A stretch of DNA of 64,000 nucleotides. Source: Abditibacterium sp. Lineage in GTDB: Bacteria; Armatimonadota; Abditibacteriia; Abditibacteriales; Abditibacteriaceae. Within the stretch, counting starts at the first letter, position 1, and every line of letters starts with the position of its first letter. Made by a program: the position numbers. Positions 36,001 to 42,000 of the stretch are shown in pieces. Where the stretch lies: contig OZ251992.1 in assembly GCA_965246885.1 (NCBI GenBank), positions 1,600,001 to 1,664,000 of the forward strand. Reading direction: 5' to 3'.

Positions 36001-39000
36001 CCGTCGCCCGCAAGCTCAAGCGCCCCTCCTCTTCGATTCAAAAGTCCCTTGCCGTCCTGCTTGAACGCGACATCCTGCGCACCGAAGAAGAAGCGGGCCG
36101 CTTGCGCTACCATTTCGACGACCCCTTCTTTGCCGCTTGGATTCAAAGGACAATCGCGGAGAATTAAAGCCCCTCGCGCGCCGCGCCCGTTTGCGATAAA
36201 ATCGGCGGCGTGTTTTCTCCGGCTTGGTCGGCGTTGCTCGCGCCGCGTTCGTTTAACCCCGTCGTCGCGGGCGCTCAGGTACGGGCGCTCCGGCAAAGCG
36301 GCGACTCCTCCGAAGCGCGCGAGTTCGTCGGCGCGTTCTTGGGATTCGACCCGCGCTCGCGCTTCGCGCTTCGCACCACCTTGGAATCCCTCGCCAAACC
36401 GACCGGCGGCGCATTTTGGGTGAATGGCGCGTTCGGGTCGGGCAAGTCGCACTTTTTGGGAGTCCTCGCGCTGGTCTGCGATGGCGTCGGATGGGCGGAG
36501 TTGGCTGCCAACTTCCCCGAAATGGCGCCCGCGCTCGTGCCGCGCATGGTCGTGCACATCCCCCTCGACGACTACAACGCGAGCGAGTGGAGTTTGGAAA
36601 ACGTCTTCTGGCGCGAAACAAGGCGCGAATGGGAATCCAAAATCGGCGAATGGCCCGCGTCAGTCGAGTCCGCGCGCGTCGGGAGCCGCGCCGAAGCGTT
36701 GGAAGCGCTGCTTTCCGAACTCAAAGCGCGCGAGTGGGGCGGCTTGGCGCTGTTCTTGGACGAACTATCGCTGTTTCTTGGGGGGCGGACGCACCGCGAA
36801 TTGCAAAGCGACGCTTCCTTTTTGCAGTTTCTGGGGCAAAGCGCGCGGCGCGACGCCTTCTGGGTGGTGGCGGCGCTGCAAAAGACAATTGAAGACTTGG
36901 GCGGGCTGGAACCGTACGCTTTGGGCCAAATCCGCGACCGCTTCCAAACCTTGCCGCTTTCGCTCGCGCATTTGCCCGCGCTCATCGGGCGCCGTTTGGT
37001 CGAAGTGCGCGACGAGAGTGCCTTGGAACGCTGGTGCGACGAGTCTCTGCGCGAGCGCGAAGCGCGCTTTGGGGTGCTGCCGTTTGGCATTCAAGAGTGG
37101 CGCGGCGTGGCACCGTTTCACCCGATGACGGTGGAACTGCTGGAAGCTGTCGCGGGCCGCTTCTTGTCGCGCACGCGCTCGGCGCTGCTGTTTTGCGCGC
37201 ACGCTTTGAACGAGGCGCAACGCCAAAGCGCCGAGGAGCGCGTGCTACCGCCCGCCATCTGGGACTACTTCGCGCCCGAAATCGAGGGGCACCCCGATTG
37301 GAGCGTGCTCGCCGAAGCGGAAGCGGCGTGGCTCGAATCGATCGCGGCGGCGCCTCCTCCTGAGCGCGACGCGCTCAGTTTAACCGCCAAGTTCCTGCTC
37401 TTGTCGCGCGTCGCGGGGCGCTCCACGACGCCCCTTGCTCTTGCCCAAGCGCTCGATTTTGCGCACGAGAACCCGTCCGAGTGGGCGCGCTACCTCTTAG
37501 AAAAGCTGCGGCGGGGCGCCGGTTTTTTGGCCTTGGAGCGCGGCGACGACGCGGGCGGTGACCGCTACGCGCTCGATTTGGGCAAGCGTGTCGGCGAAAG
37601 TGCGCGGCGCTTGGTCTTGGGCGCGGCCAGCGAAATCGAGGACGGCGACGCGCGTTTAACCCAAGCGGCCATTGCCAGTTGCAAATCGGCCAGTTGGCCC
37701 TTAGCCGAAATGGGCGACGACGGGCGCAGCGTGTCTCTGTTCTGGCGGCACTCGCCGCGCCGCGTCCGCGTCGGGGTTTGGCACGATGGGGCGCTGACCG
37801 CGTGGACGAACCGCTTCGCCACCCTGCGCGAACAAGGCGACGCGGCGCTACTGCTTTTCTGGCCGCCCTTTACTCTTGCGCGCGGTGAAGCGGCGGGACT
37901 TCTGCTGGCGCCGCTCCTCACGGGCGCGGCGGGAAGTTGGGGAGACGAGCGCGCGCGGGCGGCGGTGTGGGCGTGGCGTCCGCGCTTCCCGACGCGCGAC
38001 GAGTGGGAGTTGGCGCGCGAGGTGGCGGGCGCGCACTTGGCCCGCCAAGACCCCAACTTGCTCGACAACAGGCGGGGGCGCGCCGTCTTGGAACACCTCG
38101 ACCGCGAGCGGCCCGCCCGCGAGTCGGCGCTGGAACGGGTGGTGCGGCGCTTGTATTTGGAAGGCGACTTGGTGCTGGGCCAAGGTGCGGCGCTCGACGC
38201 GGGCGAATTGGCGGGGGGCGAGGACTTCGGCGCGGTGTTGGAAGCAGTCGCCGACTTCGCTCTGCCCCACCTGTTCGGGCGCTTTTCGGGTGTGGCGCCG
38301 CGTGCCCGCGTTTTGACGCCCTCCAACGCCGATGCACTCTGCCTCGAACTGCTGCGCCGCCCCGCCAACGAGCCGTTTTTCGCGCCCAGTTTGGAGAGGC
38401 TGGCGCGTCACCTCGGTGAGCCGTTGGGCGTGGCAACGCCAAGCGCGGGACGCTGGAAGATGGGGGTGGGCAACGACGATTTAGCCGCGCACATCCTTGC
38501 TCTGGTGGGCGCCGGGGCGTCGCTGTCGGCCCTCAACGAGGAGCTTGGGCGCGACGAATGGGGTTTGTCGGAAGAGATGCAAGCCGTCGCGGTGTGCGCC
38601 CTCTTGCGCGCCGGGGAGTTGGTCGCGCTCGACGCGCGCGGGCAAACTCTGGCGCCCGCCTCTATCGGTTTGCCCCTGCGCCGCTCGGTTCATCGCCTCG
38701 TTCGCGGCGCGCTTCCGGCGGCGGGGCAGTGGATACGGTTGGCAAGCGTGTGTAACGCGCTGCTGGGCGAAAAAATCGGCGCCCCCTCGTTCGAGGAAGC
38801 GGCCCGCGTCGCGGCCCTGCTCGGTGCGTGGCGCGATGAAACGCAGTCCCGCCTTGAACTGGCCCGCGCCCGCGCCGCGCAACTTCGCCGCGCGTTGGGG
38901 CACTCGCCCGCGCAATGGGCCGACTTCGAGGCCGCGACGGAAACCGTCGCGGGCGCCGTTGGGGATTCGCGCACCGACGACCAAGCCCTGCTTTTCGAGC

Positions 39001-42000
39001 GCGCCGCGAACTGGGACTTGGCGCTTTTAGCGCCCGCTTTGGCAAGCGCCACCCGCTTCGCTGGCGCTTTGGAGGGCGCCGGGGAGTTGCTGGCGGGACA
39101 CGCGCTCCTGTCCCACCCCGACCTCGCGTGCCCACCGGAGTTAGCCGACGAACGCGCGGCGCTGTTGGAAACTTTGGCGAGCGGCGAAGCCGCGCTCTTT
39201 GATGCCGAACTCAAACCGCGAGGGCGCGAGTGGCGCGCCCGCTACGCCGAACTTTACGCCGCTTGGCACGGCGCCCAGCACGACGCGGCGCGCTGGAATT
39301 CGCTCGCGCGCTTGGCGCGCGGCGATGAACTGCGCGCGCTGGAACGTTTGGCTACCCTCACGCGCCGCCGTTTCGACGCAGGTGTTGCCATCCGCGCCGA
39401 ACTTGACGCAGCCCTTGAAGCGCGTTGCGGGCGTCCCGACGCCGCGCAGGTCGCGCAAGTGGCGCTGTCGCCCGGTGATGCGGTGTGCAATGCGTGCGGG
39501 TTGAAGTGGGGCCAGCGTTTAATGCTGCCCGATGCACGCGCCCTTGAAGAACGCATCGGTGCCGCCCTTGCCGCCTTTCGCGCCACCTTGCGCGAACCCG
39601 CCACCGCGCGCTTTTTGGAACGCCGCGCGCCGGAATTGCTCGCGCCCGACGCCGATTTGCCCGCGCTTTTCGACCGCGACACCTTGCAACTGTTGGACGA
39701 AGCCTTTGCGCCGCGCCGCCGCGTCGCGCGCTCCTTGGCCGAACTGCGCGGGGCGCTCGAAGGCCTCCAAACGCGCGGCCAGTGGCACGGCGCCCTGCTC
39801 GCGTGGTTGGATGGCGGCGCGGCGTTGGGCGATGAGGACGAGATGGAGTTGGGTGACTGAGTGAGCGGCCTAATTCTTCAGCTGCCCCAGTTAATTCATT
39901 GGGGAATTCTATAATTTTGTCAATGGTTTACCCATGCGACGGGAAGAATTAGCCGCGCAGAGCATCCACCGATGTAAATCATCGAAAAAATTAGCGCGTT
40001 CCCGCGAAGAATTAGCCCGGTGAGAGCGTCGCCGCCCTCTGTCATTGGAGCGCAGACGGCGGGAAGTTAGGGATTTTCCCAAGCAATGCACCTCGCTTTG
40101 GCGCTGTTCTTGCTTTGGACAAGCTTAATGCTTTCCGCGCCACCGTTTTTCGGGAGCGCTGGGGCAAAGGACACACAAACTATGAAAACCACCATCCAAC
40201 GCGGCGTCACGGCGACCTTGCTCGCCGTCATCACTGCAGGCACCTTGGGCCTTGGCGCCCCTCAGCCCGTTCAGGCCAAAGGCTTTATCCGCCGCCACCC
40301 GTTCGTCACCGGAGCCGCCGTCGTCGGGGGCGCGATGATGTATCGCCACCACCAGAAGAAAAAGGCCCGCAAGCGCGCCCGCGCGATGATGGCCCGCCCC
40401 GTCCGCTAAGCCTTGGCGCCTCGTCAACAGCCGCTTCTCTTTCGAGAAGCGGCTGTTTTTGTTGTCCGAGCGCCGGAAGTGTCTGCCAAACTGGAAGGGC
40501 TAATGCTCCTCCAGCTTTCCACGACGCACCAGCCCGCGACGGATTTGGGGTTTCTGCTCGCCAAAAATCCGGCTCGCGCGCAAACGTTCGACTTGTCGTT
40601 TGGGCGGGCGCGCGTCTTTTATCCCGAAGCGAACGAAGAGCGTTGCACGTTCGCGCTTTTGTTGGATGTGGATTCGGTTGCGCTCGTGCGCGGCAAAAAC
40701 CAAGGGGAAGGGCTGCTGTCGCAATACGTCAACGACCGGCCTTACGCGGCGACGTCTTTTCTGAGCGTGGCCATCGCGCAGGTATTGCGCTCGGCGATGA
40801 GTGGACTGTGCAAGGAACTCCCCGAACTCGCGGCGACGGCGCTGCCGCTCCGAGCGCAGGTCGAGGGTGTGCCCGCCTCGGCGCAGCAGTTGGAAAAGCT
40901 GTTCGCACCGTTGGGTTGTGCAGTCGAAGCGCAAGCGGTCGGCGCGCGGCATTGCCGTTTGACGCTCGAAGCGACGGTGAAGCTGTCCGATTTACTGTCG
41001 CATCTGTATGTCCTCATCCCGGTGCTGGATGACACCAAGCATTATTACGTGGGCGATGAAGAGGTGGAGAAGCTGTTGCGGCGCGGCGCAGGCTGGCTCG
41101 AAACCCACCCAGAGCGCGAGTGGATTGTGTCGCGCTACCTCAAAAAGCAAAAGCACCTCATCCGCGTGGCGCTGGAGCGTTTGTCGCCCATCGAGGAAAG
41201 TGACGACAAGGATGAGGAGGAAGCGCGCGTCGAGCGGCCCTTGTCGCTGCATCAGATACGCTTGGAAACCGTCGCACAGGTTTTGAAGGAAGCGGGCGCC
41301 AAGCGCGTGTTAGATTTAGGTTGCGGTGAGGGGCGCTTGGTGCGCGAACTGTTGCGCGACCCGTTCTTCGAGTTCGTGCGCGGCGTGGACGCCTCGCACC
41401 GCGCGCTGGAGTTGGCCGAAGACAAACTGCACGTCGAGCGCATGACGGAGCGCCAACGGGCGCGCTTGGAACTGGTCTTCGGGGTGCTCACTTACCGCGA
41501 CGCGCGCTTCGAGAACTTCGACGCGGCGGCGCTGGTTGAGGTCGTGGAGCATCTCGACCCGGCCCGTTTGCCTGCCTTCGAGCGGGTGGTATGGGAGTTC
41601 GCTCGCCCAAAGCACATCGTCGTCACCACGCCCAACCGCGACTACAACGCGGTGTGGGAAACCCTGCCCGAAGGCAAACTGCGCCACCGCGACCATCGCT
41701 TCGAGTGGACGCGGGCCGAGTTCCAAAGCTGGACTGAGCGCGTCGCGCTCAAGTTTAACTACACCGTCGAAACCCGACCATTGGGGCCAGAGCACGAGGA
41801 ATACGGCGCGCCCTCCCAGATGGCCCTCTTCCAGCGAGACAACAAATAGCCACAGAGAACGCGGAGGACATCACGAAGAGGCACAGAGGTTTATGATTTC
41901 TCTCCGTGCCTCTTCGTGATGTTCTCCGCGTTCTCTGTGGCCAATCCAAGCCATGCACATTTCCCTTCCTGAACCCTGCTTAGTCGTGCTCGTTGGCGCG

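What a model noticed while it worked through the whole genome (the two positions that open the first line are those of the whole stretch)
36210..39860. A solo BrxC-like ATPase without any BREX system is a single-copy core gene of the class
g1471 (1216 aa, DUF6079/BrxC-PglY) has intact Walker A/B motifs but no BREX partners. It is single-copy and vertically conserved across Abditibacteriia, which lack PglZ, so a phage-defence ATPase appears to have been domesticated for a housekeeping role.
Evidence so far: One full-length copy in 14/14 class genomes tested, 31-73% identity. PglZ 0/15. PADLOC BrxC hits. No conserved neighbour within 1.5 kb. PF19557 in 81.5% of the family vs 4% of bacteria.
(Added by a program. 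Inside this text positions count along the whole contig: contig position 1,600,001 is position 1 of the stretch shown here. "Call 12" and the like, gene names such as g00115 and contig names such as C1 are that model's own, and its searches are not shown. The text may have been shortened before it was handed on; [...] marks where a part breaks off. The agent that wrote the report below was given it as the finding of a first reader that could run no searches.)

Follow-up and report, generated by a model that had tools for sequence, protein, structure and literature searches.

The report
Partnerless BREX ATPase inherited across Armatimonadota
A large DNA-binding ATPase that elsewhere serves as the motor of the BREX anti-phage system sits here without its methylase and nuclease partners and appears to have been passed down like an ordinary gene since early in the phylum's history, which suggests a defence part was kept for an everyday chromosome job that is still unknown.

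Summary
The ORF (36210-39860, 1216 aa) is real and BrxC-folded, with intact ATPase motifs. It is found in 30 of 31 class genomes, its tree follows RpoB, and it is under purifying selection. No BrxA, BrxB/F, PglZ or BREX methyltransferase was found in this genome.

- It is not class-specific: 72 genomes outside the class match strongly, in whole families, pointing to the phylum ancestor.
- PglZ occurs in 3 of 31 class genomes; the two loci examined are separate type-1 BREX.
- A BrxA-fold gene lies within about 7 kb upstream in 8 of 53 loci and is lost in this genus.

Its sister clade is a TPR plus BrxC-PglZ fusion module found in many phyla. Four families keep a version with degenerate Walker B, arginine finger and sensor 2, so hydrolysis looks dispensable there. 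A probable orthologue in Fervidibacter is detected in all 15 published proteome samples. It does not replace DciA or SMC-ScpB.

Best reading (0.5): a domesticated ATP-gated DNA clamp or scaffold; a defence role (0.25) is not excluded and function is untested. The scan noted this family and the fusion before on other genomes.

The parts
36210..39860 (+). Gene for the 1216-aa BrxC/DUF6079-like ATPase (solo clade)
36327..37574 (+). ORC/Cdc6-clade AAA+ domain plus first winged helix (residues about 40-455)
   Evidence: Model range 1-416 aligns to BrxC 9zdx residues 33-550, Z 19.8, rmsd 4.7, 387 aligned; next ORC2 Z 14.1
36426..36449 (+). Walker A (G73-S80)
   Evidence: G73, G78, K79, H81 in 53 of 53 solo sequences
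36759..36764 (+). Walker B D184-E185
   Evidence: Invariant in 25 of 25 class sequences; E replaced by D in 12 of 53 phylum sequences
36879..36941 (+). Q224 (sensor-1-like) to R244 (arginine-finger-like); roles assigned by position in the AAA+ fold, inferred
   Evidence: Invariant in 25 of 25 class sequences; lost in families f16, f22, f26, f35
37167..37178 (+). S320-R323, sensor-2-like arginine (inferred)
   Evidence: 25 of 25 in class; R323 is D in the 11 sequences of f16/f22/f26/f35
37587..38279 (+). Central alpha+beta domain (residues about 460-690), DNA-binding by analogy with BrxC
   Evidence: Secondary structure of the model; domain order and role from PMC12839542 section 16 and PMC13326643 section 24; inferred
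38319..38705 (+). Two further winged-helix-like units (residues about 704-832)
   Evidence: Helix/strand pattern in the model; not searched separately by fold; inferred
38721..39419 (+). Long helical or coiled-coil arm (residues about 838-1070)
39267..39497 (+). Probable zinc site H1020, C1073, C1093, C1096
   Evidence: Invariant in 25 of 25 class sequences; also conserved in fusion and type-3 relatives; metal binding inferred
39534..39857 (+). C-terminal domain, candidate dimerisation module; in the sister clade a PglZ-like domain follows here
   Evidence: dimerisation by analogy with PMC13326643 section 26, not tested here

Best explanation
A type-3-like BREX BrxC lost its methyltransferase, BrxF and PglZ near the base of Armatimonadota and was kept as a constitutive chromosomal protein with a non-defence job. 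Likely mechanism: it dimerises through its C-terminal domain. ATP binding stacks the AAA+ domains into a dimer or ring on double-stranded DNA, and the winged-helix and alpha+beta domains grip the DNA. The zinc-braced helical arms then bridge DNA segments or hold partner proteins, giving an ATP-gated DNA clamp or scaffold for chromosome upkeep (organisation or repair). It has no domain that could mark or cut DNA. Hydrolysis would serve only turnover, and four families appear to manage without it. The BrxA-like protein, where kept, would be an optional modulator. Shown: fold, motifs, distribution, tree congruence, selection, no partner found. Taken from BrxC biochemistry: ATP-dependent DNA binding and oligomerisation. 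Inferred: the non-defence role and the clamp or scaffold function.
For: - 30 of 31 class genomes carry it, against 3 of 31 for PglZ in the same genomes.
- Class trees share 16 of 24 splits with RpoB (shuffled mean 0.17, max 2); patristic r 0.97; dN/dS about 0.06-0.25 in 7 pairs.
- Family-level trees share 7 of 13 splits (shuffled mean 0.31, max 4), with no strongly supported conflict.
- Presence is nearly all-or-none by family across the phylum sample, in two of three deep RpoB clades plus two families of the third.
- Of 53 solo neighbourhoods, none has PglZ or BrxF, 1 an adjacent BrxXI-like methyltransferase, 8 a BrxA-like gene. Recurring neighbours vary by lineage and are ordinary genes such as RecJ and an L-aspartate-oxidase-like flavoprotein.
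- No match in plasmids, phages or viral contigs.
- 11 of 53 sequences (f16, f22, f26, f35) keep Walker A but lose E185, Q224, R244 and R323, yet the gene stays in f16 2/2, f22 7/7, f26 7/7. This fits PMC13326643: BrxC binds dsDNA with ATP and without needing hydrolysis.
- In the Fervidibacter sacchari tables (PMC11535203 supplement), DUF6079 protein WP_259100927.1 is seen in 15 of 15 proteome samples at mean log abundance 16.6, against SMC 14.7, Mfd 13.8, MutS 16.9, DnaB 17.2.
Against: - No direct evidence of function; the clamp role rests on analogy with type-1 BrxC at about 15% identity.
- The gene is not found in most families of one large clade (f9 0/14, f12 0/23, f29 0/10, f31 0/14), so it is not needed phylum-wide.
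- It evolves 2.7 times faster than RpoB, and one strongly supported class-level conflict exists (G026).
- Defence genes are also expressed constitutively (own knowledge), so expression does not discriminate.
- The F. sacchari protein was tied to this clade only by label and by its closeness in accession and table index to L-aspartate oxidase, not by sequence; that genome also has a PglZ-domain gene, at about one tenth the RNA level and not in the proteome table.
- The sister clade keeps an intact nuclease-type site and is patchy in Halanaerobiales (29 of 72 with any match, about 20 strong).
- An unrelated partner elsewhere in the genome was not searched for systematically.
Confidence: 0.5

Rival explanations
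1. It is still an anti-invader factor: a constitutive DNA sensor or barrier that binds incoming phage or plasmid DNA and blocks its replication alone, or recruits an effector unrelated to BREX that is encoded elsewhere.
For: All close relatives derive from BREX; the sister clade carries a PglZ-like domain with D, T, D, H, D, H, G, H invariant in 38 of 38. Rate is 2.7 times RpoB. One basal member sits next to a BrxXI-like methyltransferase (L108). BrxA-like neighbours persist in 8 of 53 loci.
Against: No methyltransferase, PglZ, BrxF or TPR orthologue co-distributes with it. Real BREX is sporadic in the same genomes (3 of 31). Trees follow RpoB at two depths. It is not found on plasmids, phages or viral contigs. 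A hydrolysis-degenerate form is kept across four families.
Confidence: 0.25
2. It is a protein scaffold or regulator (for example with the BrxA-like protein, at particular promoters or on another machine) rather than a general chromosome clamp.
For: BrxA-like gene adjacent in four families (f1, f3, f6, f26); type-1 BrxA binds BrxC and lowers its DNA binding (PMC13326643); catalytic residues are dispensable in four families.
Against: The BrxA-like gene is not found in most carriers, including this genus (0 of 12), and occurs without the ATPase in f21 (3 of 5) and f29 (4 of 10), so the two are decoupled.
Confidence: 0.13
3. It has taken over an essential replication or segregation job (helicase loader, initiator or condensin), as its ORC/Cdc6 fold might suggest.
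For: After BrxC the best fold matches are ORC/Cdc6 proteins (Z 12-14).
Against: DciA is present in 37 of 38 genomes, including all 20 carriers tested. ScpB is present in 5 of 5. DnaA-, DnaB- and SMC-like ORFs are in this genome by motif scan.
Confidence: 0.06
4. It is the ATPase of a dispersed DNA-modification module (methylation, or phosphorothioation of the Ssp or type-4 BREX kind).
For: The BrxA-like partner also matches SspB (Z 13.4, 241 aligned); weak PADLOC SspC hits; f16 (2 of 2) and f14 have BrxXI-like genes.
Against: The two PAPS-reductase-family hits in this genome read as CysH and as CysD next to CysN (names from my reading of the sequences). BrxXI-like genes are in 28 of 251 genomes and in none of f11, f18 or f22.
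Confidence: 0.04
5. It is a decaying remnant kept by inertia.
For: Partners were lost step by step; catalytic residues are lost in one subclade.
Against: Intact reading frames and dN/dS 0.06-0.25; retention over phylum-scale distances.
Confidence: 0.02

Closest known systems
BrxC of type-3 BREX (Pfam DUF6079, PF19557)
   Same: Same domain order and length; shared Walker motifs and H/C/C/C site; nearest canonical outgroup in the tree.
   Different: Only 49.9 bits to PF19557 against 1268 for a canonical member. No BrxF, PglZ or BrxHII-linked operon, and BrxXI adjacent in 1 of 53 loci. Vertical rather than sporadic.
Type-1 BrxC, Acinetobacter (PDB 9zdx, 9zll; PMC13326643)
   Same: Best structural match, Z 19.8 over 387 residues; Walker A/B, arginine-finger-like and sensor-2-like residues present.
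   Different: About 15% identity; no BrxB:PglZ or PglX found in the genome to assemble with.
TPR + BrxC-PglZ fusion module
   Same: Sister clade (0.98; joint node 0.96); full-length similarity over the ATPase-to-C-terminal region.
   Different: The fusion has about 500 more residues with an intact PglZ-type site and a TPR gene nearby in 50 of 61 loci; both are missing here.
BREX-related DUF499 systems (PMC12839542)
   Same: BrxC-like AAA+ ATPase working without canonical BREX.
   Different: They keep a methyltransferase and a helicase in one locus. This genome has such a locus with its own DUF499 ATPase 1.5 Mb away.
ORC/Cdc6 initiators
   Same: AAA+ plus winged-helix fold, Z 12-14.
   Different: About 800 extra residues; DnaA-like and DciA genes are still present.

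Membership tests
BrxC/PglY protein family | ORC/Cdc6-clade AAA+ domain followed by a winged helix | tested here: met
   Top Foldseek and VIA matches are BrxC 9zll/9zdx
BrxC/PglY protein family | Alpha+beta domain, further winged helices, long coiled coil, C-terminal subdomain; 1200-1300 aa | tested here: met
   1216 aa; secondary-structure order in the model fits PMC12839542 section 16; distal domains not fold-searched separately
BrxC/PglY protein family | Score above the curated BrxC cut-off (NF033441, 400 bits) | tested here: not met
   32.6 bits; that model is type-1-centred, and an f19 BrxC with adjacent PglZ also scores only 86
BrxC/PglY protein family | ATP-dependent DNA binding and oligomerisation | not testable with these tools
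   Needs purified protein; the complex predictor was not available
BREX system (types 1-6) | PglZ encoded with BrxC | tested here: not met
   0 in own genome; 0 of 53 neighbourhoods
BREX system (types 1-6) | DNA-modifying enzyme (PglX, BrxXI or BrxP) in the locus | tested here: not met
   BrxXI-like adjacent in 1 of 53 loci; none found in own genome
BREX system (types 1-6) | BrxB/BrxF inactive STAND protein | tested here: not met
BREX system (types 1-6) | BrxA | tested here: not met
   Not found in own genome or genus; a BrxA-fold protein (Z 14.7 to 7zge) is present in other genera of the class
BREX system (types 1-6) | Phage restriction phenotype | not testable with these tools
   Needs plating assays
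Ssp / type-4 BREX phosphorothioation | Dedicated PAPS-reductase-family gene (SspD/BrxP) | tested here: not met
   Two PF01507 hits that read as CysH and CysD
BREX-related DUF499 systems | DUF499 ATPase with methyltransferase and helicase in one locus | tested here: not met
   No DUF499 hit for this ORF and no such neighbours
TPR + BrxC-PglZ fusion module | Fused C-terminal PglZ-like domain and adjacent TPR gene | tested here: not met

The most novel reading that the evidence does not exclude
The motor of a phage-defence system was domesticated once, near the origin of Armatimonadota, into a new class of bacterial chromosome-architecture or genome-maintenance protein. It would be an ORC-like, ATP-gated DNA ring with zinc-braced arms, more abundant than SMC in the one cultured relative with proteome data, and it later became a pseudo-ATPase in four families.
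Probability: 0.3. Interest if true: 0.85.

Novelty: new variant of a known kind. Interest (0 to 1): 0.66.

Why it matters
BREX reviews treat BrxC and PglZ as an inseparable core. Here BrxC persists alone and vertically across much of a phylum, including as a likely hydrolysis-dead form. That gives a natural test of what BrxC does on DNA without BrxB, PglZ or a methyltransferase, and a candidate case of a defence gene turned into a cellular one. Cultured carriers exist (Abditibacterium utsteinense has a 45%-identical homologue; Fervidibacter sacchari has a probable one), so the question can be tested. The series type-3 operon, BrxC+PglZ+BrxA, TPR+fusion, BrxA+BrxC, solo active, solo degenerate maps which BREX parts depend on which.

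Tried and rejected
- Replacement of the helicase loader or condensin: DciA in 37 of 38, ScpB in 5 of 5. Rejected.
- Dispersed PglZ: the fused-domain profile gave 30 of 251 weak matches (best 6.8e-16), not co-distributed with the gene; none locally.
- TPR orthologue: best 139 bits in 151 phylum genomes, in long generic TPR proteins, also in non-carriers; best single domain 67 bits in own genome against 169-413 for true members.
- Dispersed BrxXI methyltransferase: 28 of 251, not co-distributed.
- BrxA-like gene in five genomes with the fusion: 0 of 5, with no positive control in that call.
- Sequence libraries did not name the BrxA-like family; the Atlas gave only a lead (BrxA on 13% of one cluster); the fold search decided it.
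- Expression in this organism: no RNA holder listed.
- A maximum-likelihood RpoB run returned nothing; the family tree is FastTree only.
- The type-1 BrxC fragment was dropped from the broad tree for low coverage.
- Supplement of PMC12839542 could not be read; it may list these proteins. Its section 12 says hits with unassigned neighbourhoods were discarded.
- Literature searches showed no description of a stand-alone BrxC in Armatimonadota. The one preprint holding both 'Armatimonadota' and 'BREX' (10.64898/2026.06.24.734251) was seen only as a listing.
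Full report
Observation. The window holds an intact 1216-codon ORF at 36210-39860 (+), GC 0.68 against 0.63 for the genome. 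Library hits are weak and N-terminal: PF19557 49.9 bits, PADLOC BrxC-PglY E 3e-9, NF033441 32.6 of 400 bits. An AlphaFold2 model of residues 40-1200 (mean pLDDT 87, pTM 0.45) matches Acinetobacter BrxC best (Foldseek E 3e-7; Z 19.8 over 387 residues, then ORC/Cdc6 at Z 12-14). In 25 class sequences G73, G76, G78, K79, D184, E185, Q224, R244, R323, H1020, C1073, C1093 and C1096 are invariant. Neighbours in the window are hisF/hisI, a SIMPL protein, an archaeal-type ATPase and Hen1-Pnkp; none is a BREX gene.

Class level. 30 of 31 genomes match, 17 of 17 good ones; the gene is single in this genome. PglZ is in 3 of 31; the two loci examined are separate type-1 BREX. For the 27 genomes with usable pieces of both genes, the ATPase tree shares 16 of 24 splits with RpoB (shuffled mean 0.17, max 2), patristic r is 0.97, there is one strongly supported conflict (G026), tree length is 2.7 times RpoB, and dN/dS is about 0.06-0.25 in seven pairs, some near saturation.

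Phylum level. A profile search of 251 genomes of the phylum matched 116; by my count from that table 98 reach E 1e-40 or better, 72 of them outside the class. Presence is nearly all-or-none by family: f11 4/4, f18 6/6, f22 7/7, f26 7/7, f27 12/12, f20 7/9, against f9 0/14, f12 0/23, f29 0/10, f31 0/14. Only two candidates per genome were scored there; a full rescoring of five non-carriers gave one weak hit (E 0.002). On an RpoB tree with one genome per family, carriers fill two of three deep clades (apart from f19) and two families of the third (single gene, FastTree, deepest node 0.80). A 16-tip comparison shares 7 of 13 splits (shuffled mean 0.31, max 4) with no conflict at 0.95 or above; three tips used different genomes of the same family. 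Presence in the ancestor of the sampled phylum followed by losses is the simplest reading; early transfer between lineages is not excluded. A named Fervidibacter protein is 72% identical to f34 members, and the Atlas's top cluster is commonest in Fervidibacterota.

Partners. In this genome (92.7% complete) no PglZ, BrxA, BrxB, BrxF or BrxXI was found. A gene of about 285 codons with no Pfam match lies upstream in 8 of 53 solo neighbourhoods. Its model (pLDDT 92.5) matches BrxA (Z 14.7, 180 aligned), 3bhw (14.3) and SspB (13.4), with the next row at 8.3. It is in 29 of 251 genomes: class genera g3 6/6, g4 3/3, g5, g7, g8, but not g1 (0 of 12), g2 or g6; also in f19 5/5, f23, f6, f26 2/7, and in f21 and f29, which lack the ATPase. 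So BrxA and BrxC both descend vertically but are decoupled. A BrxXI-like methyltransferase is adjacent in one locus, the deepest branch of the solo clade (L108), and is not co-distributed.

Origin. Among the best 150 representative hits, 51 exceed 1530 aa, most with a C-terminal PglZ-type domain. In 38 locus-derived sequences the residues D, T, D, H, D, H, G, H are invariant. Of the 61 loci in this clade, 50 have a TPR gene of about 330 codons nearby, and no methyltransferase cluster recurred. On 545 N-terminal columns the solo proteins form one clade (0.99), sister to the fusions (0.98; joint 0.96), then the f19 BrxC+PglZ(+BrxA) loci, then type-3 BrxC (one fragment dropped). In Halanaerobiales the fusion is patchy (29 of 72 any match, about 20 strong).

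A natural pseudo-ATPase. Of 53 solo sequences all keep Walker A. The 11 from f16, f22, f26 and f35, a clade in both trees, have D in place of the Walker B glutamate, lack Q224 and R244, and have D at R323. The gene is still kept in f16 2/2, f22 7/7 and f26 7/7. In type-1 BrxC, ATP binding but not hydrolysis is needed for dsDNA binding, the alpha+beta and winged-helix domains contribute, the last 80 residues dimerise, and DNA promotes larger oligomers (PMC13326643, sections 24, 26, 27, 31 and BrxA passages read). The conserved function may therefore be the ATP-bound, DNA-gripping state; this step is inference.

Expression. No RNA run holds this stretch. In the supplementary tables of PMC11535203 (searched rows and main-text passages only), the one DUF6079 protein listed for F. 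sacchari has RNA under all eight substrates (base mean 914) and protein in 15 of 15 samples at 16.6, beside SMC 14.7, Mfd 13.8, MutS 16.9, DnaB 17.2, GyrA 19.0 and RecA 19.6; it is also among 254 proteins in an enrichment metaproteome. Orthology is inferred from its label and its closeness in accession and table index to L-aspartate oxidase, whose likely homologue follows the solo gene in 6 of 6 f34 loci. That genome also has a PglZ-domain gene with low RNA (97) and no proteome row.

Mechanism. Best reading (0.5): a domesticated ATP-gated DNA clamp or scaffold for chromosome upkeep, with BrxA as an optional modulator. It cannot mark or cut DNA by any domain found. It does not stand in for DciA (37 of 38 genomes) or SMC-ScpB (5 of 5). 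A defence role, alone or with an unknown effector, keeps 0.25: its ancestry and sister clade point that way, while its inheritance, neighbourhoods and absence from plasmid, phage and viral collections point against. Self-association could not be modelled.

Comparison and novelty. It is a BrxC-family protein by fold and architecture but not a member of any BREX type, BR system or Ssp system by the tests listed. In PMC12839542 (abstract, sections 12, 16, 18, part 1 of section 25, and term searches) Abditibacteria, Armatimonadota, TPR and BrxC-PglZ do not occur in the main text; its supplement was unreadable and may bear on this. Paper searches showed no stand-alone BrxC. This scan had noted the solo family with its BrxA-like partner, and the fusion module, on other genomes; I had logged the same reading before seeing them, and those notes are not independent support. 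Added here: phylum-deep vertical descent, the degenerate subclade, published expression of a probable orthologue, and two excluded replacement roles.

Verdict. Real, intact, solo in this genome, old and vertically inherited; function inferred only. New variant of a known kind; interest 0.66.

Noticed in passing
window 40413-44481 (+): Hen1-Pnkp RNA repair pair directly downstream (TIGR04074, TIGR04075); seen near the ATPase only in the close relatives G003 and G011.
   Followed up: partly
G000:C1:3133183-3144155 (L308): A separate DUF499-type BREX-related locus: Snf2 helicase with NOV_C, DUF1156 methyltransferase, HEPN-DUF499 ATPase. The methyltransferase region reads as two overlapping ORFs in different frames, so it may be broken or misassembled.
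   Followed up: partly
L103:7806-14462, L164:120-6638, L102, L105 (family f19): BrxC + separate PglZ, with a BrxA-like gene next in two loci; BrxXI-like genes nearby or elsewhere. 4 of 5 f19 genomes match the ATPase profile; it looks like a type-3 BREX in partial dispersal.
   Followed up: partly
L150-L156 (families f21, f29): BrxA-fold gene without the ATPase, in f21 3 of 5 and f29 4 of 10: a second orphan BREX part.
   Followed up: partly
L213, L217, L226: Members of the fusion clade (about 1340 aa) lacking both the PglZ domain and the TPR gene, with another shared upstream gene of about 230 codons: probably an independent loss.
   Followed up: no
L086, L088, L089, P0133 (family f18 and similar): N-terminal extension of about 200 aa or more with no Pfam hit; in P0133 it recalls a degenerate Y1 transposase fold (from memory, untested).
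   Followed up: no
L098 and L165:7680-8993 (G200): The gene is in two pieces about 1 Mb apart in a one-contig genome: rearrangement or assembly error.
   Followed up: no
L041, L044, L045, L046, L051, L052: recJ lies convergently downstream in 6 of 17 class neighbourhoods.
   Followed up: no
L036 (G030:C273): A canonical type-3 BrxF + DUF6079 pair coexists with the solo gene in the same genome.
   Followed up: partly
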